This document shows, one piece after another, positions 14,250-51,704 of a stretch of DNA of 64,000 bases. The notes beneath the pieces are model-generated. The model did no database searches, had not been told where the DNA came from, and saw only the letters and a program-made list of their open reading frames with translations. The position numbers were made by a program, and so were the translations under genes. The DNA is from Emiliania huxleyi CCMP1516 (lineage: Eukaryota), in assembly GCF_000372725.1 (NCBI RefSeq), contig NW_005201792.1:561440-625439 (forward strand), in the 5' to 3' direction. The first letter of the stretch is position 1, and every line of letters begins with the position of its first letter.

Positions 14250-15163
14250 CGCTGAGGGAGGGTGTGTAGAGGATGTAGAGTGTAGAGCGCTGTAGAGCTG
14301 TAGAGATGTAGAGCGCTCTGGAGCGCGCTGTAGAGCGCTGTAGAGCTGTAGAGCTGTAGAGCTCTACATCCGGCGCGGGACGATCTGAGTCCGATGTAGA
14401 GCGATGTAGAGCGCGATTTTGCTGTAGAGTTTGTTGTAGACGGGCTCTACAGCCAAAAGGCCAAGAAAGGCAGTGACTCAAAGAGGTCGAGCCGCGCTAA
14501 TGGGATGTCTCCGAGCTTACTGGAGCTCTGGTGGACGGCCCTGACTATCCCTGACACACAGAGAGTCACTCCGACGGTACACAACACCTACAACTGCGTC
14601 ATGACCAGCCTGCCATGTGTCGCCGGTGCCGCATTCGTCGCTGTGCTGTGCTTCTTTAGCAGGCGGTGGACTGTCGGCTGCGAGGACGGTCGCATTTGCG
14701 CGAGGCGATCATTGTTGAGCGTTGCATGCGCCATGACTCGCGCCAGCGCGTGCGGGAGCTCCTGGCTGAGCGTTGAGTCCAGCCGAGTTGCGCGCTGGCC
14801 ACTATCGCTACGCCGAGCCGAGCTGACGCGCCGAGGCGCCGGCCAGTCGCAGCCGTGAGGCATGTCACAGCAGCAGAGGCACCTGCCACCCATTGGGCGG
14901 GCAGACAGAAGGCTAGGGCAGCACTGGCAAGTGCAACGCGCCTCATGTCGGAGAGCGACCGTGCCTCGTTCGCAGCTTGTGTAGAGTTTGTTGTAGAGAT
15001 TTCACGTTGTAGAGCGCCTCTACATCGCTCTACATCGGACTCACAAAGTCCCGCGCGCGCCGGCTGTAGAGCTCTACAGCTCTACAGCGCTCCAGAGCGC
15101 TCTACATCTCTACAGCTCTACAGCGCTCTACACTCTACATCCTCTACGCACCCTCCCTCAGCG
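14250..15163. mobile_element. Non-autonomous foldback/MITE-like element with ~160-bp terminal inverted repeats built from TGTAGAG subrepeats
   Basis: Left arm cgctgagggagggtgtgtagaggatgtagagtgtagagcgctg... is the near-perfect reverse complement of the right arm ...ctctacactctacatcctctacgcaccctccctcagcg. No transposase ORF; TSD unresolved. Confidence 0.85.
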
Positions 15164-19887: not shown

Positions 19888-22044
19888 ATGTACATGAACA
19901 TGTGGACTGCCTGCGCCGCGGTATCGTCGACCACGGTCCCCAGCCTTGCCATCGATCCGCTCATCACCAGGCTGCTCCGCGCAAACGGAGCAGCGGCATT
20001 TCCGCCGAGCCTTGACGAGATCAACGCTGCGGCTGAGGGGCTCACCGTCTGGCGCCATGCGCTCGCGGCCGGCCGCCTGCCAGATTACGGAGGCACAGAC
20101 GGTGGGTTGCCGCCCTGGCCACCACAGCCACTGCTCGGCACGCTGACCGACACGCTGAGCCGCCTCAGTCTGCCGCGAGCGACGGCGCGGCACCCGTCGC
20201 TCGTCCCGGCAGCCCTCGCCGCCGTGCTCGCCGCTGCGTCTGAATTCGACGCGCGTCGGGTGGCCGCGGTGACAGGCGAGTCGGCCGACGATGACACGGA
20301 GCGAGCGGCTGCAGAGCGAGAGGGGGAGGCGGCGGAGGCGGAGGCGGCGGAGGCGGAGGAGGCAGAGGAGCAGCTGCAGCTCGAGGCGGCGAGACAGATA
20401 GCGCTATCCGTCGAGTCGGAGTGGGCTTCGCCGCTGCGCGGCGTCCGCGCCGTCGAGGGCTTGGGAGGTGGCAGCGGTGGCGACGTCGGCGCGCTGACTG
20501 CTGCGCCAGGCGACAGCTTCAGCCTGGCCGACGGGCTGTGGCGGCACTCGGGCTGGAGTGCTCTCGAGGGTGTGCAGGCGAAGCTGCGCGAGCTGGACGA
20601 GCTCAGCGAGCTGGTGGCGAGCCTCGGCCAGCGGGCCGCGCCGGAGGGCACTCCCATCCGCGGGCCTGCAGTCTCGTTCGACCCGCAGGCCGCACCCTCG
20701 GCCGCGCTGGGCTCTTTCCTGGAACCTGCCCGGACCTTTCCTGGACCTTTCTCTAGGCCGCGCCCTCTGCCGCGCTGAGCGAGCTCTCCCCGCGCGAGCT
20801 GTCCGGCCTGTCGTAGATGCGGGAGCACATCTCCAGATCACATCTCCAGATCACATCTCCAGATCACATCTCCAGACCACATCTCCAGACCACATCTCCA
20901 GATGCGGTTCACATCTCTGTCACAGCACGCAAGGCGCCTCGTCCTCGGGCGGTACTCGACACTGCTCAAGCCGCCAGTCGCCGCGCCCGTCGCTCTTCTA
21001 GTCCCGCGAGACGCGGGTGTGCGACAGTATAGATCCACGCCTCTCATCCTCCAGGCCTCGCGCGCACCGGCGACCTCGCGCGCGTCACACCGGCCGAGCT
21101 CGCGCTGCTGGCCTACGGCGGCGGCGGCGAGGGCGGCGGCGGCGAGGGCGGCGGCGGCGGCGGCGAGGGTCGGGCCGGCCTCCGGCGGCTGTTCCTCAGC
21201 CGCCTCGCGGAGCGTCGGCTGCTCGGGTATGCCCTCGAGGGGTGGGCGGAGGCGAGCGGGAGGCCTCGCCGTCGGCGGCTCGCGCGGCTGCCGCGCGAGC
21301 GAGGCGGGCCGCTCGTGGTCTGCCTCGACACGTCGCACTCGATGGCGGGCGGGCGAGAGACGATCGCGAAGAGCGTCGTCCTCGAGGCCGTCCGCGCGGC
21401 GCACGCGCAAGGGCGACCGTGCCTGCTCTTTGCATTCTCCGGCGCGTCGGACCTGGCCGAGCTGCGGCTGACTCCGGCGGCGCGGCGCGGCGCGTCCAAG
21501 AGGCGGCGCGACGCGGGCGGCGGCGGAGCGGGCGGCAGCATGGACCGGCGCAGCCTGACGCGCCTCCTCGACTTCCTCGCGTGCGGCTTTGGCGGAGGGA
21601 CGGACGTCGCCTCTCCGCTCCGCCGCGCGCTCGACGTGCTCGAGCGGCCGGACGGGGCGGACGTGGTTTACTCCGGCGCAGACTTGCTCCTCGTCTCGGA
21701 CGGCGAACTTCCCGACCCGCCCCTCGACCCGCCCACGGCAGAGAGACTGCGGCGCCTGCGCTCGCGCCAGGGCTTCGAGGCGCACCGGCCACGCCGGCCG
21801 AAGCGCCACACCACGTCGCCTCTCACCGTTGGTCGCCTCGGCGCAGGTGCACGGGCTGCTAGTCGGTGCGCCGCGGCCGACGCCGCTCGATCAGCTGTGC
21901 GACGAGGTGCACACCTGCCTCTCGCGTTTCGACCCGCTCGCTGTGATGCGAGAGAGGTCGGCGGCCCGGCGAGAGGAGCGGCTCGAGGCTGCGCCGGCGT
22001 GGCGGCGGGCGGCGCACCGCACCGCGCTGCCTATCTCTCGCTGA
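19888..22044 (+). CDS. viaA: ViaA-like von Willebrand A (MIDAS) protein, spliced; start uncertain
   Basis: LFLSRLAERRLLGYALEG, GPLVVCLDTSHSMAGGRETIAKSVVL, PCLLFAFS, FLACGFGGGTD and ADLLLVSDGE follow the ViaA/YieM VWA pattern. Confidence 0.8.
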
Positions 22045-22461
22045 AAGGAACCTCTCATTCGCTCGTCCGCACCCGTCACCGCTCACGGAGTGCTCCGCGT
22101 GCCGCACCGGCCGCCGCCGGCCGCCGGCCGCTTACGCGGTAACGGAACAGTGTTACTACTCCGCAACGTTGAGCTGGATCAAACTGAATAGTGCTCCTGA
22201 AAGCCCTCTCTCTGGGCTCTGCCACACAGTAGCAGCTCACGACTAGCAGCTGCTGTGGCTGTATTTGTAGCCATTTCGTTAGGCTTCAACTGGTCCCAAA
22301 ATAGTAGCAACACCTCATGAAAATCAGTCAAAAAAGCCCCAAAAAATCGGCGCCTGCGGCGGGCTTCCTGGGGCTGCGCCCCGGACCCCCTTGACTGGGG
22401 GGACCCCCCCCGAGAGAGCACACCCCCGTCGCGCCCCCCGGGGGCCCGTCGACACCCCAGG
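22027..22461 (+). mobile_element. Right-hand fragment of the TIR element seen complete at 57472-58224
   Basis: Near-identical to 57801-58224 and ends in the right TIR ...gggggcccgtcgacaccccagg. Confidence 0.85.
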
Positions 22462-22830
22462 AGGAGGATGCTGCTGTGCAGGGCGTGGCTGGGAAGGTGG
22501 ACGAGTCGCTCGAGCGTCGGGACGAGCGGGCTTGCGCCACTGGTGGAGGATTCAGTATGCCGCAGGCGGCTCCCACCTCGATGGGTTATCACTCCTGCAC
22601 TGGCGCATTGAAGAGGGGATCAACTCATCAACATTCAACAAACAGGAATCGAGGGTGACCGCATGTCTGCATCAGACGTGTCATCCGTCCCGATCGTGAC
22701 CAACCAAAGCCACCCCCTCTTCGTAGACCCCATTCTGAGGGGTCCTGATTCCAAAGCCGCTCCCAGCCGCACCCGCCAAGCACCTGGGTGCCGCCTCCAC
22801 CTCCGCCTTCAATCTCAATGTCCCACCCCC

Positions 22831-22943
22831 CACCCCCCTGCGCGCGGGCCTTCTAGGCCCGCGGGTACATGTAGTCTCCCCCCATCCCCAGGGCCTCCAG
22901 GGCTCGCACCTCAACCTCTCATAGACCAGCGCAAAGCGCCATA
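22831..22943 (+). repeat. Dispersed ~115-bp repeat, copy 2
   Basis: Matches 7032-7147. Confidence 0.8.
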
Positions 22944-23063
22944 TGACGTATTTTCTTGGGGCAGTGGTTTTTCTTCTCCCTGTCGAACTCTCGCTTCGCC
23001 CCTCCGTGGGCTGCAGTTCCTGCTTGCTTGCTCCCGGCTCGCCGCCGCTTGCCGGTCCTTCGA

Positions 23064-24950
23064 ATGAAGCTCCCACAGCTGCTTGCCGCTCTGCTGCTCG
23101 TCGTCGCCTATGGTCTCAGATTACCGCCGATTTCGCGTGGCGGGGTGATAGGCGCGGCGTTCGCAGCCAGTGCGCCGGCGCGAGGCGGGCGGCGGGCGGC
23201 TCGGTCTACCGCCGTCTGCATGGCGGCACACGCGAGGGCGACGGGGGCGGGGGCGGAGAGGAGGGCGGGCGACCCGGCAGGGCCGCCGCGCATGAGCGTG
23301 GCCGAGGCGGCCGAGGAGGCCGAGGTGGGAGCGTCGGCGGACTTGCGCGAGCGCGCGGCCGCCAGGGTGCGGCAGCAGCTTACGGCGAGCGTGAACGCTC
23401 CCCACAACCCCCGCGGCGTCAGCGTCGCTGGCAGCGTCGGCGCGACCGTGCGACGAGCGACGGCGCTGCTCGAGGTCGGGCTCATCGAGCGCGAGTGCGA
23501 GGCGAGGCTGCTGCTGCTGGCGCTGGTGGGCGGGGAGCACCTTCTCCTCCTGGGGCCGCCGGGCACGGCAAAGTCGGAGCTGTGCCGGCGTCTGTCGACG
23601 ATCGCGCGCCTCGGCTACTTTGAGCGCACGCTCACACGCTTCTCGACGCCCGAGGAGCTCTTCGGGCCGCTCTCGCTCGCCGCCCTCGAGCGCGACGAGT
23701 TCAGGCGAGCCACCGCCGGCTACGCGCCCACGGCGGAGCTCCTTTTCCTCGACGAGATCTTCAAGTCGAACTCGGCCATCCTCAACACGCTGCTGACCTT
23801 ACTCAACGAACGCCTCTTCGACGACGGCGCCAAGCGCGAGCGCGTGCCGCTGCTCTCCGCCGTCGCCGCCTCGAACGAGGGCCCGGAGTCGGACGACTTG
23901 TCGGCGCTGTACGACCGCTTCCTGCTGCGCCGGCTAGTGGCGCCCGTCTCCGACGACGGCGTGCTCGAGCTGCTGCTTGGCGGCGAGGCTGCCGAGGGCG
24001 GGAGCGTGGACGCGGCCCTGCCAGACCTGCGGGAGGCGCTCGAGGAGGTCCGAGCCGCCGCGCCGTCGGTGCGATTGCCGCGGCACGTGGCGCTGCTGCT
24101 GCGCGACGCGCGCGCCTTTGTGCGCGAGACGGGCGCCGACGGCTTGGGAGGCGGCTACGTCTCGGACCGGAGGCTGCGCCGCTCGGCGGAGCTGCTCAAG
24201 GCTTGCGCGGCGGCACACGGGCGCGACACGGTCCGGAGCCGCAGCGCGTCAAGAGTGCGGCTGTCCTCTCTTCACACCCTCCAGCCTAGATAGGTCTCTG
24301 TTGTCGACGTCGCGGCGGTGCTGCCCCACGTCCTGTGGGATACGGCCGAGGAGGCGGCCGCGCTGGCCGAGTGGGTCGAGGACAACGCGTTGCCCGACGG
24401 CGGCGCCGAGCAGCTTCGTTTCTTGCTCGAGTCGGTGCGCTCGAGGGCGGCGGCGGAGGCGGCGGACGAGAGCGCCGGCCCAGCAGCCGAGGCAGCGGGC
24501 GGCGGCGGCGGTTTGGCGGAGGATGCCCTCGCGCTGGCGGCGGCGACCCTGGCGGCGGCGGCCGAGATGCGGCAGCACGTGGGCGCGGTCGAGCGGTCGG
24601 CGGAGCACCTCTTCCTCCCGGCGGCGAAGGCGGCGGTCTTGCGGCAGCGGCTGCTGCCCCGCGCGCGGGAGAGTGCGGAGGAGCTCGAGCAGCTCGCGGC
24701 CGAGGCGGCCCTCTTCGAGCTGGCTTTGGCCGACGGTCTCGACGAGGAGGGGTGGGCGGCGCTGCAGGCCGAGGACGACCTCGACGGGGGCGGCGGCGGC
24801 GAGGCGGGCACAGCGGTGGAGGCGCCAAGCTTCGATTTTGACGAGGCGGAGCTCAGCTGGGGCCGCAAGGAGGCGAAGGCCAAGCTCGGGCCCGAGGAGT
24901 TCAGAGCGTGGCGGAAGGCGGCGAAGGCGGCGGCCAGGAGAGGCGACTGA
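23064..24950 (+). CDS. ravA: RavA-like MoxR-family AAA+ ATPase with signal peptide and transit-peptide-like leader; intron ~24231-24293
   Basis: GEHLLLLGPPGTAKSELCRRL (Walker A), YFERTLTRFSTPEELFGPLSL, LFLDEIFKSNSAILNTLLTLLNERLFDDG (Walker B), ASNE, ALYDRFLLR and YVSDRR. Leader MKLPQLLAALLLVVAYG-LRLPP...RSTAVCMA. Confidence 0.9.
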
Positions 24951-26400: not shown

Positions 26401-26649
26401 GAACTGGTGTGAGACGTGCAGCGCGAGACCATGTCTGCGCTACTTCCACGCACCACGTTCAGAGCTCGTCCCTTCCCCGACTTGAGCGGCGAGCCCTCGC
26501 TGTCTTTTCCCATCTTGATTTGCGCTCCCTTGCCGTCTCTCAGCTCTCCCCCGGTCTCGACGGCGGTCCTCTTCCCAGCTGAGAGCGCACGTTATTTTCT
26601 TCCGGGTTTCGGAGAACGTCCTGGAAACATTCGCAAGTCGCCGACTTCC

Positions 26650-27603
26650 ATGGATTCGTTCGGCCTTGTTCTCCTCCTCACGTCGGCCAGCGGTCTCACC
26701 GTCAAGCCCGCCCTCCTCCCACCACCGCGGTCAATCGCCACGCCTTCTGTGGCCACCAAAACTGCACCATTTGAAGCGGCTTATGGACTCCATAAGCCGC
26801 GCATCAACGAACCGCGGATGGCTGGCACCGACTCTGACACCGCCTCGCGTGCTGGCGCCGCACTGCAGATGGCGATTTATGACGACGCTCGCCAGCGCTC
26901 AGCCAGAGCGCCACGCCGCTGGCCGGCCGCGAGCAAGTGGGTGCTGGCGTCGGCCGCCGCCGCCGCCCTGGTCCAATGCGATTTGGGCGGGCTGCTCGCG
27001 GCGTACAACTCGGCGCTACATGATTGGCCATTCTCCACCAAGGCTCTGAGCACTGGCATCACCTACGTCCTCAGCGACTTGACGGCGCAGGCTCTCGAGC
27101 GGCGGGCTGTCGCCAGCAGCAGCGGTGGCAGCCGGCAAGGCATCACCCTGTCGGCGGCGGGCAGCGAGAGCAAGCTCAGGGTCGGGCGTGCGCTGCGCTT
27201 TGGAGCGGTCGGCCTCCTCTGGGTGGGCCCGCTGCTCGCCGGATGGTTCCAGCTCATGGAGCACTTTGTGCCCGGCCGCTCTGCCGGCGCCGTCACCCGC
27301 AAGCTGATCCTCGACCAACTCGTGCAAGGACCCTTCATGATCGGCACCATGTACCTACTGACCGGCGTCTCGGGCGGGCTGGCGACCGGCCGGGGCTTTG
27401 GTCGATCCCTGCGGCAGGCTCGTCGCACGGCCGAGCAGCAGCTGGCGCCAACGTGGGTGCGGTCCGTCTTTGTGTGGGCGCCGGTGCAGGCGCTGCAGCA
27501 GTTGTTCGTCCCGCTGCAGCACCGCGTGCTCGTCGCGAATGGGGTGAGCTACTTCTGGGACACGTACCTCGCGAACAAAATGGGCGGTGAGGACGAGAGC
27601 TGA
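26650..27603 (+). CDS. Mpv17/PMP22 family membrane protein with bipartite presequence
   Basis: YNSALHDWPFSTKALSTGITYVLSDLTAQ, RALRFGAVG, KLILDQLVQGP and WAPVQALQQLFVPLQHRVLVANGVSYFWDTYL. Confidence 0.9.
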   Translation: MDSFGLVLLLTSASGLTVKPALLPPPRSIATPSVATKTAPFEAAYGLHKPRINEPRMAGTDSDTASRAGAALQMAIYDDARQRSARAPRRWPAASKWVLASAAAAALVQCDLGGLLAAYNSALHDWPFSTKALSTGITYVLSDLTAQALERRAVASSSGGSRQGITLSAAGSESKLRVGRALRFGAVGLLWVGPLLAGWFQLMEHFVPGRSAGAVTRKLILDQLVQGPFMIGTMYLLTGVSGGLATGRGFGRSLRQARRTAEQQLAPTWVRSVFVWAPVQALQQLFVPLQHRVLVANGVSYFWDTYLANKMGGEDES

Positions 27604-28057
27604 TGCCCTGCTGAGTTCCGTGAGCCATGTTCCGTGCAAGCACGCCCACTAGCGAAACCGAGGGAGCCGTGGTACGTGTGTGCACAATCCCTGTGACAGT
27701 ATGTGCATGTACGTGCATCAAAGTCACACGTGTTATCTTTTCTTCTGTTGTCTAATCTTGTGTTCACATGCAACTCTTAACCGACGCTCCCGCACCGCGC
27801 CGGGTGCACACTTGGGGACACTTACATGTGCATGCACATGTGCCAATTTGGTGCACACTTGGGGACACGCGGGAGTGGGAGTGCGAGCGTGGAGGCGGGG
27901 GGGGGCAGGCGCAGGGCGCGGCGCGGCGGCCCCGCACTGTGCGCACTGCGCACACCCGACCGCAACGCGCAACGGTAAACTCCATCGTCCATGCGCCGGT
28001 AATGGTAAACCATGCGGTAAACCTAAACGCGCGCGTACACACACAAGACACAGCACA

Positions 28058-28140
28058 CACAACGTCTCATCAACAGGTTGGCGCAGACCTCGCTCTGAGA
28101 GCTGTGCCTGCTTTCGCCGAAACCGCTTCATTCGCTTGTG
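28058..28140 (-). promoter_or_regulatory. SECIS element (form II) in the 3' UTR of the GST-MsrA gene
   Basis: Minus strand: cacaagcg-a-ATGAA-gcggtttcggc-g-AAA-gcaggc-aca-gctc-tca-gagc-gag-gtctgc-gccaacctgt-TGAT-gaga-cgttgtg. Helix I, the UGAN/NGAN quartet, an ~11-bp imperfect helix II, unpaired AAA and an apical mini-stem all fold by hand. Confidence 0.75.
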
Positions 28141-28236
28141 TGACTGTGTGCGGCCCCGCGCTGTGCATGGCCCACCGCGCCGGTGTGACCTACGGCAGAC
28201 CGCTGTCTCCGCCATGCTCGGAGCTGCTCGCCCGCT

Positions 28237-29820
28237 CTAGAGCCCCCAAGCCGTCCCTGGACCGCCCAGATCGCCCCAGCCGTCGTCATCGGCCGCGGCA
28301 CTCCACGAGGGGAACGACTTGTCCTCCGCCAGAAAGTGCTGGTGGTACTCCTCCGCATCGTGCCTAGGGACACGCGTCGGGACGCGTGATCGACGACTCG
28401 AGACGAGCGGTAGCTGCACGCTCCTCGCGCCACGCGCTCGGGGGCAAGACAGGAACCAGCCCTTCCTTGCCCGCCTCCGCGAGCGCCGTCCGCGCTGCCG
28501 CCGCCTGCGCGCCGGTGTGTGCCCAGACGGCGACCCGCGTCTGCCGCCGCCGGAGGAGGTGGAGCGCGGAGTCGGCGGGGAGGGCGCGCACGCGCTGCAC
28601 GCGTGGGTCGGATGCGAAGCGGCGAACCAGCTCGCCGTAGGAGACGACCTGCCCACACAAGCAGGCGTGAGTTGACCTGCACCGCGGCGCGGAGGCCTGC
28701 GCCGCCGCTCGAGGCCGACGGGTCGAAGTCGAGACGGAGCGCCTAGTGCCCGTGGCAACGCCCGCGACTCAGCCGCCGGCCCAGACTCGCGCGGAGGCGG
28801 AGGGGCGAGCGGCCTCGGTGTGCGTGTTCGCGCGGGCGCAGACGCTCTCGTACGACGGTGGCGCCCCGGACGGGTCCCCGTCGCCGTCGCCGCCCGTGTA
28901 GCCGACGCGGGAGCGCAGGACGCCTGGTGGACGAGAGAAGGGGCGCGAGCGTCACGGGCTGGCGCACGGCGGGCAGGTCAGCGAGGCGCCTCACCCGGGA
29001 TCGAGTCGTACTCGGACTGCGGCAGGTGGAATCAGCCGAGGCCAAAGGTGGCCGTCTCTGTGCGGGTATGCTCCTCCCCGCGTGCGCCAGGAGAGACGTG
29101 CGACACATAGTAAAGCCTCGCAGCGCGCGCCATCTCCGCCTCGCCGGCGCTCGTCGCCTGCACTGAGGGTCGCGCGGCGACCGCCTCCATCCACGAGGCC
29201 GTCCTCGCAAGCCCCTGCTGACGGCAGAGCTTGAGCAGGTCAATGTTGCGCCAGTACGGTAGCATGAGCAGCATCCGCTCGACCCACGGAGCGGCGACGC
29301 ACTCGGCCAGCGAGAACGCCCCTCCGAGCAGGAAGGGCGCCGCGCCAGTGGACGCCTCGCGTCAGCCTCCTCGCGCCATCGTGCGCTCCCACAGAGATGC
29401 CTCCACCGCACGTAGCGTCTCCAGGAGGCCGGCGACGGCAGTGCGGACCTGCGCCTCGGACTCGGCCTTGAGCACCGTGTAATAAGCCGGCTCGACCTGG
29501 CTTGTCCACACACCCACGAAGGCGTCGATGGCAGCCGTCTCGGCGCTCGGAAGCAAGTTTGTGTGCCGAGTGCGGAACTCTGTCGCCACGCGCCTCGCGA
29601 CGACCGCTGACTCCGTCACCACCTCCCCGTCATCCATCACGAGGAGAGGCACGAGGCCGGTTGGCGACAGCCTCAGGAACTCCGGCGGTTTCTTCTCGAG
29701 GTCGATCAGCGTGTGCTCAAAGCGTGTTTTTGTCTCGAGCAGCGCAACCCAAGGGCGCTGCGCAAAGGGTCACACACCCGAGTTGAAGAGGCGAAGCCCG
29801 AATGGTGCGAGGGCGAGCAT
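28237..29820 (-). CDS. Selenoprotein: Cys-type (omega/DHAR/lambda-like) glutathione transferase fused to methionine sulfoxide reductase A
   Basis: GST part: LFNSGV-[TGA 29770-72]-PFAQRPWVAL...KPPEFLRLSPTGLVPLL..GEVVTESAVV...PFLLGGAFSLAE..APWVER. MsrA part: ATFGLG-[TGA 29032-34]-FH..SIP/GVLRSRVGYTGG..PSYESVC..HTE/ALRLDFDPS/VVSYGELV..W/HDAEEYHQ. A further in-frame TGA lies at 29362-64. Confidence 0.85.
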
Positions 29821-30354
29821 GACTCCGCCGAGCTGAAAGCCCAACTGGGCGTCCCTCGCGGCTGCTCCAAAAAACAAAACCGGGAGGGTTGGGAGCGAGG
29901 GGGCGAAAGCCCAGCCCTCTCCGCGCGGCGATGCGCCCTCCCCCCTCGCTTTTGCAAAATCCTGCAAAGGTGGGGACGTGTCTGTCCTCGACCTAGCCCT
30001 AGCTTGGGATGTCCGTTGTATTTATTTATTTATCGAGGGGGCGAAAGTGTTCAGTGCGGTAGATGGTAAGCTCGAGGCGCGTGAGCCGGACCTGTGAGCC
30101 GGACCACCCCCTCTTGTTCCCTGCGTTGTTGAGCCAGGACTCAACATACTCGGGCTTGCTCATCCCAAACTGTCACTCCCCTTTCTCCCGGCCGGGGTGG
30201 GGCGCGCGCGGGGGCGGCGGGTGTGCGGCGGGTGTGCGGGATGTCTGTGGGCCCGAGAGCGATTGCCGTGTCCGCCTTGCGTTTGTTTCAAACATCGAAG
30301 GCTAAGCTCAAAAAGAAATAAAAAAAGGCAAATATTATATATGTCGCGCTCCGC

Positions 30355-32431
30355 ATGCCGCCGCTTGTTGACAGCGCGCTGGGCGGCGAAGTCTCAGAGA
30401 ACGTCCTCTAGGCGGCTGCGGACGGCCGCGTGGGACCGGTGCGATTGTGGCTGAATGACGGCGGGAAGGCGGACACGCTCTTCCACGCTGAGTCTCAGTG
30501 CGGCCAGACTCCATGCACCCTGCTGATGCTCTCCGCGCAGGCCGGGCACGTGCAGATGGTCGAGCTCCTCCTGAAGCGTGGCGCACACATCAACCTGCAA
30601 ACCAGTTGCGGGTCCACTGCGCTCAACACTGCCGCCGCCTGCTACGGCAACGAGCGAATGGTGGAGATGCTGCTGCTGCACGGAGCGGAGATAAACCCGC
30701 AGGACTCCGCCGTTTGGTCGGCGCTGGCAGTGGCTGCCCAGGGTGGACAAGAGCGGGTTGTCGACCTGCTGCTGCGGCGTGGCGCAGAGATCGACATGCA
30801 AGACAAGAACGGTGGCACCGCGCTGATGCTCGCCGCCTTCGGCCATCCCGCCGTCGTTCTCCGCCTGCTGCGGGCGGGCGCAGACATGACGTTGCGCGAT
30901 GCGGAGGGCAAGACGGCGCTGCAGTGGGCCAAGGAGGAGGGCCACGCCGAGTGCGTCGAGGCCTTCAGGACGCATCTCGGGGAGGTGGCAGCGGTCCGGA
31001 AAAAAGGCGCCGTCAGCCGAAGCAGGCGGCGCAGGTGAGGCGGTGGGTGCGAGTGCCGCGGCCTCTGCTTCGAGCGGCGAGGGAGGCGCGGAGGTCGAGC
31101 CGAGCGGCGGCGGGGCGGTGCCAGAGGAGGTTGAGCTGGCGGCTCGGCGAGGCGATGAGGAGGCGGTGCTGGCGTGGCTCGACGGCGGCGGGCGGGTCAA
31201 CGCGACGTTCGAGTACGTCTTTTCGGAAGGGCCTGTGAGCGGCATGACGCTACTGATGCTCGCAATGACCTACGGCCACGCGGGGCTGGCTGAGGCGCTT
31301 CTGCGGCGCGGTGCAGATGTCTCGTTGCAGAACAGCAGAGGTGGCGCCGCGCTGGGTCTCGCCGCCGCGAACGGCCGCAAGAAGCTGGTCGAGCTGGCAT
31401 TGCAGCACGGCGCGGAGGTGAATCAGCAAAACAATTCCTGCATCACTGCGTTGATGGACGCCGCCTACAAAGGCCACGAGCGGATTGTCGACTCGCTGAT
31501 CCGGCACGGCGCGGCGATCGACCTGCAGGCCAACAACAGCGACACCGCACTGATTCGGGCCGCTTTCAACGGCCACCCCGCCGCCCTCCTCCGCTTGCTG
31601 CGGGCGGGTGCAGACATGACGCTGTGCACTACGGATGGCACGACCGCGCTGCAATGGGCCAAGAAGCAGGGCCACACTGAGTGCGTGCGCGCCCTCGCGG
31701 AGCATGCGGCGGCCGAGAAGGCGGCCGAGAAGGCGGCGGCGGAGGCGGCGTGGGCCGCGGGAGCGGCGGAGAGGGCGGCGCAGAGGGCAGCGGAGGAGAA
31801 GGAGGCGGCGCGGCACGCCGAGGAGCTGCTGGCGGAGGTCGAGGCGGAGAAGCGCGCCAAGGGCAAGAAAGGCAAGAAGAAGAAGAAGAAGGGCGGCAGG
31901 CCGGGCGGGGCGGGGCCGTCGCAGGAGCCCGAGGAGGGTGCCGAGGGGCCGTCGCAGGCAGACGCAGCGGAGGCGGCGAAGAAGGCCGAGGAGGCGAGGC
32001 TTCTCCTGCTTCTCGAGACGCTCACCGAGGAGAGGATGCGGCTTGGCATCACGCCGGAGAGCCAGGCGGCGGCGGCGGCCGAGGTGGCCGAGGTGGCACG
32101 CTTGGACGCGGAGGCGGACGAGGCGGAGGAGGAGGCGGAGGCGGAGCAGGAGGCCGAGGCGGCGGCCGAGGCGGCGGAGGCGGATGCCGAGGCGGCGCAG
32201 GCGGAGGCCAGGGCGGCGAGGGACGAGGTCGTGGCGGCGCTGGAGAAGGCCAGGGTAGCGCTGGAGGAGGCCAAGGCGAAGCTGAGCGGGGCCGAGTCGG
32301 CTGTTGAGGGGGGCGAGACGGCGCTCGAGGAGGCGAGGGCCGCCACAAAGATGAGGCGTGCTGCTGCAGCCGCTGCGATGGCCAGGGCAGCCGCCGCCAG
32401 GATGGCAGCGGAGGCGGCCCAGCGCTCATAG
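30355..32431 (+). pseudogene. Ankyrin-repeat protein with Ala/Glu-rich coiled-coil tail, disrupted
   Basis: Two tandem ankyrin modules (TALMLAAFGHPAVVLRLLRAGAD..TALQWAKEEGH; TALIRAAFNGH..TALQWAKKQGH). In-frame TAG at 30409-30411 and a frame change near the A-run at ~31000. Confidence 0.7.
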
Positions 32432-40190: not shown

Positions 40191-41525
40191 GGCTGTGTGT
40201 GGTGATGTAGCGATGGTGTGGGTCTCTAGTGACCTAGCTCCTCCGTGTTCCGTCTCCTGACATGGTACCGACCGGTGAGTGCACGGAGTGAGCAGTGCGG
40301 CACTGAGGCCGACATGAGAGCTGGTGCGGCACACAAGCGAGATGTGTTGCCGCACAGCATTTCCGGCTTACGCTCGATACGTTGGCTGGCACCATGGGCA
40401 CCCGCGAGCCGTGGTGATTGGCTGGGCACAGAGGCTCGGCGCACGGTGGCACAGCGGCCGCCAACTGCTCGGCACGGAGGCTGAGCAGAATGAGTACAAC
40501 CGCAACATCAACTTGGGTGCTTGCGGATCTTCTGCGACAGAGCGCATCTCCGCCAGCACTGCGGCTGTGTGGACACGAGTATCCCCTCTTGCTTCTCCTT
40601 ACCGGTCCGTTCTCCTCGCCTACGGACCACCATCGCAGCTGCTGCCTCCGCTACCAGCTCTCGGGCTGCTGCAACGGCAGTTACCGCAAAGATCTCGCAC
40701 CGAATGTGGACCCTGCCTTTCGCCGCCGCTACTTCCGACGTCGCCGCTCGACACGACCGGAGCTGTACGCGATGAACACGCGACGATCGACACGCCCTCT
40801 CTGCCTTGTGTGGCGATTACCACGTCGTGGGGGAGTGTTGGGCACCTGTTCGACGTGGCAATGCCACTCTACCTCATTGCTGTCTCTTCCTCGTCTCGCC
40901 TCCTCGCGCTAGCCCGTCCCGCTGTCCAACGCCTCTGGCAAGAAGTCCAATGCGCCTCTACGAGCGTCTCTGCCGTCTGGACGTCTGAGACTGAGCCTGC
41001 CATCTCCGACGTCGGCGGCCCGTGGCGCAACATCAACGTTCGGGGCATTGAAGATCGTCCTCACGTCCCTGATGCGCTCATCCGCGTCAACGCGGCGAGG
41101 CCTCCCAACGGCCCAATCGCCGCGCAGCAAGGGGGCGCCCCCGCTGCCGCTCCCGCGCCCGCCGCGCCTGCCGCGCCCGCTCAAGCCGCCGCCCCGCGAC
41201 GCTCAGCCCGGATTGCAGCTCGCGGCGCGCCATGACCGAGCTCCACAACGAGCTCCTGTTCATTATCTCCCCTTTCTCTCTCTCCGCCCACTCGGCCGCG
41301 CTTTGACCCCTTCACTGGATCATCTTAGCGCGCAAGTCTTGCCAACAAGCAAGACCATCCTTCGCGAAGACGCAAGGTTGGACGCTTAGCCAGCCCCGCG
41401 AGACGCCGGGCGGGTAACCGGCATACCTACGCTCAGACACATTCACACTCTGTGGCTGTGGTGATGTAGCGATGGTGTGGGTCTCTAGTGACCTATACAG
41501 CTCCTCCGTGTTCCGTCTGCTGACA
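40191..41525. repeat. ~75-bp imperfect direct repeats (40191-40262 and 41454-41525) bracketing a 303-aa ORF
   Basis: Both ends carry gtggtgatgtagcgatggtgtgggtctctagtgaccta..gctcctccgtgttccgtct.ctgaca. Confidence 0.75.
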
Positions 41526-41581
41526 AAAAGAATTCACGTTACGCGGCACGCCGCATACTCGATCATTCGTCTGGGCGCTCC

Positions 41582-42955
41582 ATGTCAGCCGCAGACCCGA
41601 TGCCGACCGAGCCCTTCCAGCTCTCCGCCATCCTCACCGGCCACGAGCAGGACGTGCGATCCGTGGGACCGTTCGCCGACGGCCAGGTCATCACCGGCTC
41701 GCGCGACGCGACGGTGCGTGTGTGGAAAGTCGACAGCGAGTCGGCTGACGGAGCCTCTGCCACGTGCACGCACACGCTCAGCGGCCACACGCACTTTGTG
41801 GGCGCCGTCGGCATCACCGCCGCCGGCGAGGCCCTGTCGGGCTCCAACGACAAGCACATCATCATCTGGAACACCGAGGCGGCGGCGCCGGCGCACGTGC
41901 TGCAGGGCCACACCGAGCCGGTCACGTGCGTCCGCGTCTCGCCGAGCAGCGGGCAGCTCTTCTCCGCGTCGTGGGACAAGACCGCGCGCGTGTGGGACCT
42001 CGGCAGCGCCAGCTGCGTCGCCGTGCTGAAGGGGCACGAGGCGGCGCTCTGGGCGGTGCAGCCGCTTGGCGAGGAGGCTGCATCCGACCGGTGCCTCACG
42101 GGGGGCGGGGACCGGACGATCAAGCTCTGGGCGGGCGAGACGTGCGAGCGCACGTACGAGGGCCACAGCGACGTCGTGCGCGACCTCGCGCTGCTGCCCG
42201 GGGCGAGCCTGCCCTGCCGCTGCTCGCCGCGACACGCGACACGTCCACACGGCGCGCCCTGTGTCCCTCTCGCAGGCGGGCTTCCTGTCGTGCTCGAACG
42301 ACGCGACGGTGAGGATGTGGGAGCTGGGCGGCGAGTGCCTGCGCGTGCTGCAGGCGCGAGCCCCGCGGGGAGGGGAGGAGGCTGCGGGGCGGAGGAGGGG
42401 ACAGGGCGGAGGAGAGGAGGGGACGGGGCGGGAGGGAGAGAAGGAGGCGGAGAGGGAGGCGGAGGGAGGGGAGCGATGCCCCGCGTGGCCTCACCGCAGG
42501 CGTCGGAGACGTTCCTCTACTCGGTCTCCGTCCTGCCCGGCGGGGAGTGGCTCACTTGCTCCGAGGACCGCACCGTCCGCGTCTGGGCGGGCGGCAGCGA
42601 CGACTGCGTCCAGTCGATCACTCACCCGGCGACAGTGTGGGACTGCGCGCCGCTTCCCAACGGCGAGCGACGCACGCGACATACACCCCGCCCGCGCGCA
42701 CCGGCCCTTGCGCGCCAGCCCCGCCCGGCTCCTGCCCCTCTCCGGGACGTGGAGATGGTAGGGGATGGAGGTGGCAGGGATGGCCGGGGCCCCTCGCCTC
42801 GCTCCGGCGCGTGGAGCCGGTCTCCTTGTGCCCCTCACAGACAAGAGTCGAAACCTACACCCGCACCCTCACCCTCTCCCTCTCCCTCTCCCTCACCCTC
42901 ACCCTCACCCTCACCCTCTCCCTCTCCCTCGCCCTCTCCCTCTCCCTCACCCTCT

Positions 42956-42990
<35 letters not shown>

Positions 42991-45363
42991 TCCCTCCACC
43001 CTCCACCCTCAGGCGACATCGTCGCCGGCTGCGCGGACGGCAGGGCCTACCTGTGGACGCGCGCGGCGGGGCGGGCGGCGCCGCAGGCGCTGCGGGGCGA
43101 CGCCTCAACGGCGGTGTCCTGCGCCTCGGCTGCACCTCGGCTGCACCTCGGGAGTAGGCGCTGCAGGCGGGCTTCAAGGACGAGGTCGCTGCGGTGGCGA
43201 TGCCGGCGCAGCAGGCGGGTGGCGGGCGGGGCCCTCGGCTGTGGTTGGCTGCTCACTCTCGGCTCTCCGCCTCGCGCAGGTGGAGGGGATGGTCGGCGAT
43301 CTGGACGTGTCGCAGCTGGCGAGCGAGGAGGCGCTGGCCCAGCCGGGCGAGCGGGAGGGGCAGCACAAGATCGTCAAGGACGAGGGCGGCACGCCGATGC
43401 TCTACACGTGGTCGATGGCAAAGGGCACGTGGGAAAAGATCGGCGAGGTGACGGGCTCGTCGGGCGGCACGTCGCTCGGCAAGCGGATGCACGGCGGCAA
43501 GGAGTACGACTACCTCTTCGACATCGACATCAACGGCGTGCCACTGCCCGACCACGACACGTCCACGACACGTCCGCCGCTGCGACGACTCGCGTCCGCG
43601 ACACGTCCGCGGCGCGTCCCTCTAGGCAGCATGCTCAAGTTGCCCTTCAACCGCGGCGACGACCCCTGGTGGGCGGCGCAGCAGTTCCTCTGGAACAACG
43701 ACATCGACCAGGCCTTCCTCGACCAGGTCGCAAACTTCGTCATCACAAACACGCCCGGGAACCAGGCCCCGTCTCTGGCCCGCGCCCACCCCACACGCCC
43801 CTCCTCCTCCCCCAAGCTCCTCCCTCCTCTCCGCAGGTCTCGTCCGGCCCGCGCAACGCCGACCCATTCACCTCTGGCGGCTCGTACCGGCCCGCCGCCA
43901 ACGGCGCGGGATCGAGCGGCGCAAACGGAGGCAACGCCGACCCCTTCACCTCTAGCGGCGCCTACCGGCCCGGCGCGGCCCCCGAGGGCACGCCGCCGTG
44001 GCGCGGGAGCTCGAGGCAATCTCCGAGAGGGCCCGAGGGGACCCGCGGCTGTGGCCGTAGGCGTGCCCAGCTGTGGCGGGTCGAGCGCGCCGCAGGACCC
44101 GTGGATGCGAGGCGCGTACACCACCGCGCAGGGCGCCGCCGCCGCCGCCGCCGCCGCCGTTACTTCCGCCGCCGCCGCCGCGCCGCCGCCTTCCTACGTC
44201 TCGTTCGAGGCTGGCAAGCACGACGCGGCCCTCGCCAAGCTGCTCGAGTTCTCCGCCAAGTTGCGCGACGGCGAGGGGCCCGACCTCGCGCTCGACGAAA
44301 CCCAGGTCGCGAGAGATCGCGATCGCCCCGAGATCGCCCCGAGGTCGCCCCGAGGTCGCCCCGAGGTCGCCCCGAGGTCGCCCCGAGATCGCCTCTGCCC
44401 CCCAAGGACACTCAAAGTCCCCCGAGGTCACCCTCCCCCGCCTCCCTCCCAGGAGAGCGGCCTCGCCGCGCTCGTCGCCGAGCTGCGCAAGGGCGGCGCC
44501 TCCGCCGCCCTCGCCCTCGCGCCCGCCACCCTCGCCACCTTCACCGGCGAGGGCGGCCGGCCCGGCCTGCTCGGCTGGCCCGCGCCGTACCTCTTCCCGG
44601 CGCTCGACTTGCTGAGGCTCGCGCTGCTCCGCGCGGCCAGGAGCGGCGTCGACACCCTCGAGCCGCCGATGGCCCTGCGGCTGACCGCGCTGCTCGCGCC
44701 CGGCTCCGCCGCCGCCGCCGAGAAGGCGGCGCCGCTCATGGCGCTGCGCGGGCTCGCAAACATGGCTGCCAACCCCGCGCTGCGCCCGCTCGCCGCGCCG
44801 CACGCTGGCGCGATGCTCGAGAGCCTCTCGCCCTTCCTCGGCGGCGAGAGCCCGCCCGCCACCCGCCTCGCCGCGAGCTCGCTCCTCCTCAACGCCTCCT
44901 CGCTGCTCAAGGACAAGGCGGCGGCGGCGGCGGACGAGGAGGGCCTCCTGATGCAGGTGCGGCCTCCCCCCCCCCCCCCCCCTCCCCCACTCCCTCCCCC
45001 TCCTCCCCACACTCCCCACTCACCACCCCCCCTTCCCCCCCCTTTGCCCGCCGGTCCCGGCCCCACCGCGCACCAGCCCTCTCGCCCCGATGGCCGGCGC
45101 CTGACCCGCCACCGCCTCCGCAGGGCCTCTCGCTTGTCTCGCACGCCCTCGCCACGCCCTCCCTCGAGGAGGAAGCCCTCTTCCGCGTGCTCTGCTCGCT
45201 CGGCGCGCTGCTCGAGACGGGCGCCGCCGCCGCAGAGACCGCGAGCTCGCTCGACATCGAGTCCGCCCTCGACGGCCTCCGCTTGCCCGACGGCGGCGCG
45301 CCAAAGGTGCGCCAGAAGCTGGCGGCCGTCCGGGCGGCACTCGCCAAGCGCAGCAAGCAGTGA
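41582..45363 (+). CDS. PLAA: Phospholipase A2-activating protein / Doa1 / Ufd3 (WD40-PFU-PUL), multi-exon
   Basis: LTGHEQDVRSV WD40 repeats; PFU domain GKEYDYLFDIDING/SMLKLPFNRGDDPWWAAQQFL..FLDQVANFVITNT; PUL domain WPAPYLFPALDLLRL, ALRGLAN, EALFRVLCSLGALL. Confidence 0.92.
42865..42995. repeat. Intronic hexamer repeat (CCCTCA/CCCTCT)n
   Basis: About 21 units, lying just upstream of the acceptor cag at ~43012. Confidence 0.9.
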
Positions 45364-45641
45364 GCGGCCGCGGCTGCGCGCGCGTGCTAGCCGGCGGTGG
45401 GTGCAGGCGAGCACAGTCTTTCCCTGGCTCACACAGAAGCTTCGGCTTGCGCGAAAGCCCACCCGTTTGGTATCCCGGCCGAACGCGCGCGACATATCTG
45501 ACATATGTGCTAATGTCGTATCGTGTGGCGCCTGAGACGAGTCAACGAGCGAACGCCCTTTTGCTGGGTGTGTGTATGTTACGACACGGAATATTCTGCG
45601 CACACCAGCGCGCAGCGCCATAGTGTATTTTCTTCTCAATT

Positions 45642-49628: not shown

Positions 49629-51704
49629 TCAGCCGCCCGCCCTCCAGTCGTAGCTCTCCAGCGGGTCCTCCACCTCGTACGTATCCAGCGGAGGAGGTGT
49701 CGGCGGCAGCTCCCCTCCCGCGGGGTGCAACTTCTGCGCGACCACCATCGCCGTGCAAAGGACAGTGACGACGGTACCTGTGTAGGGTCCGAAAGGGTTC
49801 AGCGATCGCTGCCCAAGCACCCTGCACACCACTGCGGTGGCGAGGGCGCCCAAGGCGCAGAGGAGGCCGTGCGCCGCCACAGACGCGGGCCGCATCGCCC
49901 CCCGAGCGAGCAGGACGTACATCAGGGGCGGGAGCACGAAGGCGATGACGCCTGCGACCGAGCGGCCAGAACATGATGTGTGTGGCCAATGCGAGCGGGG
50001 GCAGGACAGCGGCGGCGGAGGCGGCAGAGGCGGAGAGGCGGCGGAGGCGGCGGAGGCGTACCGACGTTGAGCGCGCCGCTCAGTGCCACCAGGAACTTGA
50101 AATCGGGCAGCGACAGCGCCTACTCTCGGGCCACCTCGCGCCCTCTGTCGGCCGACTCGAGCAGGAGCAAGTCATGTCGGGCAGCGGCGGCGCCGTGAGA
50201 AGCGAGACGAGCGCAAGCGCCGTTCGCGCCGCCGTCCTGCCGCATGCATGGCTGTGGCCGCCTCCCGCCTGCTGCGCCCCCCTTGCCGCCTCTGCCGCGC
50301 CGCCGCCCTCCTCTTCCGCCCCCTCGCCCGCCGCTGTGTCGTGCGTGAAGAGCGCCTCCTCGACGATCTGCGACGCGGGGAACATCTTGATGGGCAGCGA
50401 GAAGAGGACGGCGACCTACGGGGAAGGCTCCGGGACGGCTCTGGGGCCCGGAGCCTCTCTTGCCAGAGGAGCGAGAGGGCGACGGAGACCGACATGCAAG
50501 CCTTGAGCCCGGCAGCAAGCCCGCCGTCGACGGAGAGGAGAATGTTGCCCTGCGTCTCGTCGCCGTAGAGCACCGCGCAAGCGAGGGCGTAGGCGAGGAT
50601 GACGCCGACGCCGGCCGTGGCGAGGGCGAGCAGGATGGAGGAGTACTCTCCTGCGGGGAGCGAAGCCGAGTGGCTGCGGATTGGAGGCAGGAGGTGTGGC
50701 GGAGGCAGAAGGTGGCGGAAGCAAGAGGGGTGGCAGAGGCAAGAGGGGTGGCGGAGGCAAGAGGGGTGGCGGAGGCAAGAGGGGTGGCGGAGGCGAGGTG
50801 GGGCGCCTTTGCGCTCGCCCATCGAGAGGACAACGGCGACGGTCGAGTCGTGTCCAGTGAAGGTGAACAGTCCCACGCCTGTGCGGCAGCGCCGAGGACG
50901 CGTCGTGGACGCGTCGAGTCGCGGCCAGTCAGGTGAGCCGTCTCCGCGCCGATAAAGGGAGCGACTGCACTCGGGTCGAAGCTAGCCAGGCGCGGGGCCG
51001 CCTCGTGCGGGCTGGCGAGGCCCTCTCCTACAGGAAGGCTCCGAGAAGCGTCGGGGCGGGGTGCCGCCTCCCGCGCGTTTGCGAGGCAAGGGCCTCTCCG
51101 AGGACGGTGAGGAGCGCGAGCAGCAGGACGGCGGTGCCGATGGCGGAGGTGGGCTCGAGCATCGACAGGTCGCGCAACCAGCAGAGGAGGACAAAGAAAG
51201 GGGTGACGCAGAGCATGACCCGCTCCTGACGTATGAGGCAAGGCAAGCTTTGCACGCCAGGCAAGCCCAGCCGCCTGGGCAGAGCTGGCAACGCGCCTTT
51301 GGCACGCCGAGCAGCTGGCCGACGTTGTCGCCAATGAAAACGAGGTAGGTCGCACAGCACGCGAGCTGACTCACCAGCATGTTTCCGGCGCTCAGCAATC
51401 CACCCGTGCGGCCGAGGGAGTGGAGGCAGAGCTCCCCGTAGCTCTTCGGCGTCACACCTGCTGCCACCGCGGCATCAACACACCACGCGAGGAGCTGCAT
51501 CGTGTAGATGGACCAGATCCCGCATAGCGCGGTCAGAAGGCAGCCGGCCGGAGCACCCACAGCAAGGATTGCGCTCGGCAGCGCGAGCAGGCCAGTTCCG
51601 AACACCGACTTGACGCTGTTGATGTAGGCAGCCCGCACGGCGGAGCGCGGCTCGAACCAGGTCGCTTTGCGGTCGGGCAGGAGGGCCTCGGAGAGGTTGG
51701 CCAT
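49629..51704 (-). CDS. Amino acid transporter (AAAP / SLC36-38 Aa_trans family), multi-exon
   Basis: AYINSVKSVFGTGLLALPSAI, SYGEL, CCATYLVFIGDN, LFTFTGHDSTVAV, YGDETQGNILL and FVLPPLMY. Confidence 0.85.

What the first reader, a model, noticed from the sequence alone, without database searches (positions are those of the whole stretch)
28058..28140. SECIS with extended apical stem about 100 nt after the GST-MsrA stop
Seen on the minus strand: helix I (cacaagcg/cgttgtg), the AUGAA...UGAU non-Watson-Crick core, an ~11-bp imperfect helix II, AAA 12 nt after the core, then a nested apical stem (gcaggc/gtctgc plus gctc/gagc). This independently supports Sec recoding. The apical arm looks longer than a textbook form II element, and only one SECIS is seen for two or three UGAs. 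The fold was done by hand, not computed.
Basis: partly seen in the sequence, partly recalled or inferred. Interest (0 to 1): 0.75.

Follow-up and report, generated by a model that had tools for sequence, protein, structure and literature searches.

The report
Long-tipped algal selenocysteine insertion hairpin
An RNA hairpin just after the end of an algal antioxidant gene likely makes the ribosome read three UGA stop codons as the amino acid selenocysteine; it is a known kind of signal whose tip is a few bases too long for the published search patterns.

Summary
The element is real. On the minus strand it has helix I, an AUGAA/UGAU core, helix II, AAA and a 29-nt apical arm, 105 nt after the stop of a GST-MsrA fusion gene of the Emiliania huxleyi group. 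Spliced contigs from 7 of 8 runs laid (5 studies) cross it unchanged. Three in-frame UGAs are conserved in relatives. It fails all four published SECISearch1 patterns only on apical length (needs 26-29 nt, limit 25) and passes the strict one when that gap is widened (my re-implementation). The long arm is probably not what lets one SECIS serve three UGAs: fusion orthologue L006 has three UGAs and one normal-length SECIS. Long mini-stems are already described in algae and Dictyostelium (PMC2375036), and the fusion is published (PMC7539508). Sec insertion was not tested and no covariation could be shown for the arm. Side results: a conserved third UGA in a GST loop, and two splice forms, one adding a fourth UGA. 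Verdict: a likely functional type II SECIS at the long end of a known variant; modest interest.

The parts
28056..28142 (-). whole SECIS-like hairpin (helix I to helix I')
28133..28142 (-). helix I, 5' arm (pairs with 28064-28056, one bulged G)
   Evidence: fold with the core held unpaired
28127..28131 (-). 5' core AUGAA (unpaired A + UGAN)
   Evidence: sequence
28115..28126 (-). helix II, 5' arm (12 nt)
28112..28114 (-). unpaired AAA bulge
   Evidence: pairing probability about 0 for all three A
28083..28111 (-). extended helix III: 6 bp, 3x3 internal loop, 4 bp, 3-nt loop (29 nt)
28073..28082 (-). helix II, 3' arm (10 nt)
28069..28072 (-). 3' core UGAU (KGAW)
   Evidence: sequence
28056..28064 (-). 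helix I, 3' arm
28237..28239 (-). TAG stop of the GST-MsrA reading frame
   Evidence: same C-terminus GPGTAWGL in L003 and L006
28995..29820 (-). exon 1 (coding part): omega/DHAR-like GST domain and start of MsrA
29770..29772 (-). UGA 17, GST active-site position (GVUPF)
   Evidence: UGA in L005-L011, Cys in L003 and other homologues
29362..29364 (-). UGA 153, loop of the GST C-terminal domain
   Evidence: UGA in 7 of 7 loci of other species aligned; Cys in P0002 and P0009
29032..29034 (-). UGA 263, MsrA active-site position (GLGUF)
   Evidence: UGA in L003, L005, L006; PMSR domain in the orthologues
28924..28994 (-). intron 1, GT-AG, 71 nt
   Evidence: joint in 7 of 7 covering runs; borders
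28716..28742 (-). 27-nt microexon of isoform B, between GC-AG introns 28813-28743 and 28715-28649
   Evidence: restores the MsrA stretch present in L003 and L006
28649..28768 (-). alternative GT-AG intron of isoform A (120 nt); leaves a fourth in-frame UGA at 28771-28769
   Evidence: joint in X1, X2, X6; translation
28364..28430 (-). last intron, GC-AG, 67 nt; joint lies on the same contig as the SECIS
   Evidence: 7 of 7 covering runs; borders

Best explanation
This is a SECIS-shaped hairpin in the 3' untranslated part of a spliced GST-MsrA mRNA, and it likely directs selenocysteine insertion at three conserved UGA codons (17, 153, 263), with the long apical arm likely a tolerated extension rather than a special device. 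Shown: the sequence, its presence in spliced contigs, conservation of the UGAs, the match to the strict pattern apart from apical length. Predicted: the fold. Inferred from mammalian work: the tandem G.A pairs of AUGA/UGAU form the kink-turn-like core bound by SBP2, which brings in eEFSec and Sec-tRNA; helix II holds the AAA bulge at a fixed distance; helix III lies beyond the AAA, so its length can drift while it keeps the bulge closed.
For: Core, AAA spacing, helices I-III present and predicted stable. Passes the strict SECISearch1 pattern once the apical gap may be 27-29 nt. Only AA-bearing candidate in the 1975-nt mRNA model. In spliced contigs of 7 of 8 runs laid, 5 studies. UGA 17 and 263 sit at positions that are Cys or UGA in homologues; UGA 153 is kept in 7 of 7 aligned loci of other species. 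Of 6 distinct relatives with a 3' UTR, 2 pass the strict pattern (L006, L007) and 3 more the loosest one (L008, L010, L011), 53-99 nt after the stop. Arm length is unlinked to UGA number: core-to-core length 54 nt here (3 UGA), 40 in L006 (3 UGA), 52 in L010, 42 in L008, 38 in L007, 32 in L011 (2 UGA each). PMC2375036 (passages and one methods section read) reports long mini-stems in Ostreococcus, Chlamydomonas and Dictyostelium; PMC2761289 (passages) finds the apical region essential but a minor determinant of efficiency.
Against: No functional test. No covariation for this arm: 2 same-species contigs and 7 runs are identical over it, but the surrounding 300 nt of UTR are also nearly invariant. 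It lies outside every published limit I read: gap 26-29 vs 25, 31-33 nt vs the 30-nt SECISearch3 filter, AA-to-GA 41 vs 39. The two pairs next to the core are weak (0.30, 0.37). A covariance model built from L007, L008 and L010 did not find it among 74 matches, and pair counts on those three were not above shuffles (163 of 500). The Chrysochromulina orthologue L003 has no convincing SECIS (z +0.68). SBP2, eEFSec and tRNA-Sec could not be looked for, as no whole genome is held.
Confidence: 0.8

Rival explanations
1. The hairpin is a SECIS and the long arm is functional: it raises efficiency, or removes position dependence, so that one element can serve three UGAs 624-1362 nt upstream, or it binds an extra factor.
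For: The arm is the most stable part (z -2.53). PMC3737529 (passages) proposes that distant Sec sites need two SECIS unless the element lacks position dependence, and that SECIS structure influences this. L010 also has a long arm, and L003 has a weak candidate with a still longer one.
Against: L006 has the same three UGAs and one normal-length SECIS; among two-UGA GSTs the length runs from 32 to 52 nt. The L003 candidate is not more stable than shuffles (153 of 200). No conserved arm sequence was established.
Confidence: 0.13
2. The hairpin is a weak or decaying SECIS: most ribosomes stop at one of the UGAs, and full-length protein is minor.
For: Helix II has two bulges and weak pairs at the core; three recoding events must succeed in series; a splice form that breaks the MsrA domain is common (3 of 7 runs).
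Against: All three UGAs and the downstream frame are conserved at about 62% identity in two other lineages, which argues that the full-length product is under selection.
Confidence: 0.05
3. Chance hairpin in GC-rich DNA; recoding uses another signal, or the gene is a pseudogene.
For: The pattern occurs about 1.4 times per shuffled window; no Rfam SECIS match.
Against: Only 16 of 5000 UTR shuffles give any hit; Rfam also misses L006 and L007, which pass the strict pattern; the gene is spliced, expressed as contigs and conserved.
Confidence: 0.02

Closest known systems
Eukaryotic type II (form 2) SECIS element
   Same: 3' UTR position, unpaired A + UGAN / KGAW core, AA 13 nt after the quartet, helices I, II and III (definitions from PMC2647825, first of two parts read; PMC3753652 passages and supplement).
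   Different: Apical part is 31-33 nt with a two-segment helix III (6 + 4 bp); a review gives 2-7 bp (PMC13059024, passage). It exceeds the SECISearch1 and SECISearch3 length limits by 1-4 nt.
Long mini-stem SECIS of Ostreococcus, Chlamydomonas and the Dictyostelium deiodinase-like gene (PMC2375036)
   Same: Long stem beyond the apical A bulge in a unicellular eukaryote.
   Different: AAA-to-UGAU is 39 nt here against the 24-35 nt window used for Dictyostelium; AA-to-GA is 41 against 15-39. It has A, not the Ostreococcus G, before the quartet. I could not see the figures, so exact stem lengths there are unknown to me.
GST-MSRA fusion selenoprotein of Emiliania huxleyi (PMC7539508)
   Same: Same domain fusion in the same species group; the paper's 4-exon model matches the exon number of isoform A.
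   Different: The passages read say nothing on this gene's SECIS, its number of Sec, or a 5-exon form, and report the fusion only in E. huxleyi; here it is also in a Chrysochromulina-type locus and a third lineage. The supplement and the paper's database could not be read and may hold these points. Sequence identity with the paper's gene was not checked.
SELENOP mRNA (many UGAs, two SECIS; PMC5133445, PMC3737529, passages)
   Same: Several in-frame UGAs, widely spaced.
   Different: One SECIS candidate for three UGAs in two enzyme domains; not a selenium carrier.

Membership tests
Eukaryotic type II SECIS | Lies in the 3' UTR of an mRNA with conserved in-frame UGA codons | tested here: met
   105 nt after TAG; spliced contigs cross it in 7 of 8 runs; UGAs conserved
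Eukaryotic type II SECIS | Core quartet UGAN / KGAW with unpaired purine 5' of it | tested here: met
   AUGAA / UGAU
Eukaryotic type II SECIS | Unpaired AA 10-13 nt after the quartet | tested here: met
   13 nt after AUGA; AAA unpaired in the ensemble
Eukaryotic type II SECIS | Helix II of suitable length with few mismatches | tested here: met
   Passes the strict-pattern stem rule and the 7-15 bp filter range; 9-10 pairs, the lowest two weak
Eukaryotic type II SECIS | Helix I below the core | tested here: met
   Duplex -14.6 kcal/mol; passes the 8-bp strict rule
Eukaryotic type II SECIS | Helix III beyond the A bulge, unbranched | tested here: met
   6 + 4 bp, one terminal loop
SECISearch1/3 detection limits (tool cut-offs, not a biological definition) | Apical gap at most 25 nt; apical region at most 30 nt | tested here: not met
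   26-29 nt and 31-33 nt; patterns re-implemented by me, SECISearch3 itself not run. Hence filed as a variant
Rfam SECIS models | Match to an Rfam SECIS covariance model | tested here: inconclusive
   No match at E up to 10, but none either for L006 and L007, which pass the strict pattern
Eukaryotic type II SECIS | Structure kept by compensatory changes | tested here: inconclusive
   No variation in the same species; relatives too diverged to align; 1 compensatory pair among L007, L008, L010, not above shuffles
Eukaryotic type II SECIS | Binds SBP2 and directs Sec insertion | not testable with these tools
   Needs binding, reporter or labelling assays
Eukaryotic type II SECIS | Host encodes SBP2, eEFSec and tRNA-Sec | not testable with these tools
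   No whole genome held; PMC7539508 reports 96 predicted selenoprotein genes in E. huxleyi

The most novel reading that the evidence does not exclude
Haptophyte SECIS elements routinely overshoot the standard apical limits or carry AG instead of AA, so SECIS-first searches miss part of the largest known selenoproteome. This mRNA would then be a natural case of one SECIS decoding three distant UGAs, including an apparently unreported Sec site in a GST loop, with alternative splicing switching the MsrA half off through a fourth UGA.
Probability: 0.25. Interest if true: 0.55.

Novelty: new variant of a known kind. Interest (0 to 1): 0.32.

Why it matters
It is a concrete false negative for the standard SECIS patterns, missed by 1-4 nt of apical length, in the organism reported to have the largest selenoproteome. 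Of 7 distinct family members tested, only 2 pass the strict, default and loose patterns, so SECIS-first searches in haptophytes likely undercount. The gene also offers a compact test of whether one SECIS can serve widely spaced UGAs, and of how long helix III may be. It does not suggest a new recoding mechanism.

Tried and rejected
Rfam scans of 5 kb and of 141 nt gave no SECIS match; uninformative, as the control shows. A covariance model from three relatives did not recover the element and ranked unrelated GC-rich hairpins first. MAFFT could not align the element with its six relatives. A scan of viral contigs gave no relative. Run X15, from another organism label, gave nothing at 80% likeness; no holder is on record as RNA, so transcription rests on the splice joints. 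Invariance among strains was rejected as evidence of selection. A second SECIS: one AA-less candidate 50 nt before the stop is rejected because 346 of 1279 shuffles give AA-less hits. The other window hit at 49973 folds poorly and was not followed beyond a three-frame translation. A shorter register ending at an earlier GA was rejected (no published pattern matches). A homologous, longer arm in L003 was considered and left open (34 of 1500 shuffles as strong; z +0.68). The AlphaFold model of the L006 protein (pLDDT 76.5) gave no coordinates, so distances between the Sec sites were not measured. Two papers were not held (Obata and Shiraiwa 2005; Novoselov 2002) and the supplement of PMC7539508 could not be read; all three may describe this or similar SECIS elements. 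Earlier findings of the scan: none.

Full report
Observation. The fold is -38.4 kcal/mol, with 6 of 200 shuffles as stable. The apical arm alone has z -2.53 (1 of 200) and the opposite strand folds less well (z -1.13). Helix II has 7 well-supported pairs and 2 weak ones by the core. My pattern-and-fold scanner hit 16 of 5000 shuffles of the UTR, but gave 83 hits in 60 shuffled windows against 2 in the real one. A looser version hit 25 of 1500, 5 as strongly. The limits were chosen after seeing the element. The motif alone is therefore not rare in GC-rich DNA; its position is what counts.

The gene. The frame starts at 29820 and encodes a GST domain (Pfam; omega/DHAR-like by fold of the L006 orthologue) fused to MsrA (PMSR in two full-length orthologues). 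A neighbouring gene is 97% identical to a protein whose cluster holds an Emiliania huxleyi protein, so the window is likely from that species group. PMC7539508 (passages and section 10 read; supplement unreadable) already reports a GST-MSRA fusion selenoprotein in E. huxleyi with four exons.

Transcripts. I laid 8 of 17 listed runs. Seven, from five studies, gave spliced contigs on which the last intron joint and the whole hairpin lie together, ending between 28007 and 27799, with no difference listed inside 28058-28140. The eighth, from another organism label, gave nothing. The runs are only guessed to be RNA; the joints with minus-strand GT-AG or GC-AG ends are the evidence. Contigs cannot show the poly(A) site. 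Two forms occur. Form B (both joints in X5, X7, X8, X13; one in X1) uses two GC-AG introns around a 27-nt exon and gives 435 residues with UGA at 17, 153 and 263. Form A (X1, X2, X6) uses one GT-AG intron, replaces a conserved MsrA stretch and adds a fourth UGA. Form B matches the intronless and spliced orthologues without a gap, so it is likely the active one.

The UGAs. The metagenome scan gave 12 loci: 2 of the same species and 10 others, about 6 distinct genes. In the 7 aligned, UGA 153 is UGA in all 7, UGA 17 is UGA in 6 and Cys in L003, and UGA 263 is UGA in the 3 fusion loci (L003, L005, L006). L004, L009 and L012 were left out as near-copies of L003 or L008. L003 begins like P0016, whose cluster holds a Chrysochromulina parva protein annotated as ending at that middle UGA. 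Against a general role for site 153: of the 24 protein homologues aligned, 2 have Cys there, 2 end there and most of the rest have neither. The site is confined to a subgroup.

Relatives' hairpins. Six distinct relatives have a 3' UTR; L005 ends early and L012 turns into unrelated sequence. With the four SECISearch1 patterns re-implemented, L006 and L007 pass all four, L008, L010 and L011 only the loosest (AR in place of AA), and L003 gives only doubtful registers. The window's element passes none as published, but passes all four, including strict, once the apical gap may reach 26-29 instead of 25 nt. The SECISearch3 filter rejects apical regions over 30 nt; this one is 31-33. The widest window I found in print is 39 nt from AA to GA; this one is 41. 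Core-to-core lengths are 54 nt here, 52 in L010, 42 in L008, 40 in L006, 38 in L007 and 32 in L011. L006 has the same three UGAs and a single normal-length AA-bearing candidate, so the long arm is not required for three UGAs.

Mechanism. From established work (passages of PMC2761289, PMC3753652, PMC7539508): the tandem G.A pairs form a kink-turn-like core bound by SBP2, Sec-tRNA is delivered by eEFSec, helix II sets the distance to the A bulge, and the apical region is needed but is a minor determinant of efficiency. I infer the same here. The extension lies beyond the AAA and leaves that geometry intact, so it is most simply tolerated drift (0.8 overall). A functional arm (0.13) is suggested by the model in PMC3737529 that distant Sec sites need two SECIS unless position dependence is absent, but L006 speaks against it. 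A weak element (0.05) or chance (0.02) are unlikely given the conserved frame.

Negative results. Rfam gave no SECIS match, nor for L006 and L007. A model from three relatives missed the element, and their pair counts were not above shuffles. Strain invariance is uninformative. The long L003 candidate is unsupported by folding. No covariation is shown for the arm.

Comparison and novelty. It works like, and meets the testable defining features of, a type II SECIS; it fails only tool length limits. Long mini-stems are described in Ostreococcus, Chlamydomonas and Dictyostelium (PMC2375036). Verdict: a real, likely functional SECIS at the long end of a known variant; interest 0.32.

Noticed in passing
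window 29364-29362 (-); L003, L005-L012: A UGA in a loop of the GST C-terminal domain (U-Q/R/H-E) is conserved across haptophyte-type GSTs, including stand-alone ones and L003, which has Cys at the active site. It lies just after a long helix in the model. Not mentioned in the passages read of PMC7539508; function open.
   Followed up: partly
window 28813-28649 (-): Two splice forms: a 5-exon form with two GC-AG introns and a 27-nt microexon that keeps the MsrA core, and a 4-exon form that loses it and gains a fourth in-frame UGA at the exon end. The published 4-exon model may be the latter. One X1 contig keeps 28715-28649 unspliced.
   Followed up: partly
L003 2956-4278, L006 1149-2480: The GST-MsrA fusion also occurs outside Emiliania (about 62% identity): an intronless Chrysochromulina-type locus and a third lineage. 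In the window's protein (form B) only one Cys follows the MsrA Sec, so the fused GST domain may serve as its reductant (inference).
   Followed up: partly
L003 4350-4430: Two AUGAA motifs 27 nt apart share one possible 3' arm; neither gives a convincing SECIS although the gene has two conserved UGAs.
   Followed up: partly
L008 874-925, L010 946-1006, L011 1366-1406: SECIS-like hairpins without AA at the apical position (AG instead); they pass only the loosest published pattern.
   Followed up: partly
window 28333, run X8: One contig lacks a base in the last coding exon (frameshift or assembly error).
   Followed up: no
window 29909-30200: The stretch upstream of the gene is matched by many high-depth, divergent contigs, which suggests a dispersed repeat.
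   Followed up: no
window 14277-14325 (+) and 15088-15136 (-): Two matches with the same aligned sequence on opposite strands, about 760 nt apart, suggest an inverted repeat, possibly the ends of a mobile element.
   Followed up: no
window 21033-24290 (+): A vWA-domain ORF next to a MoxR-type AAA ORF (Pfam bpMoxR, E 2.6e-56), a family defined from bacterial systems, in an algal genome.
   Followed up: no
window 26413-27603 (+), 30412-32431 (+), 41492-45535 (+): Neighbours: Mpv17/PMP22 gene converging on this 3' end, ankyrin-repeat ORFs, and a WD40-PFU-PUL gene.
   Followed up: no
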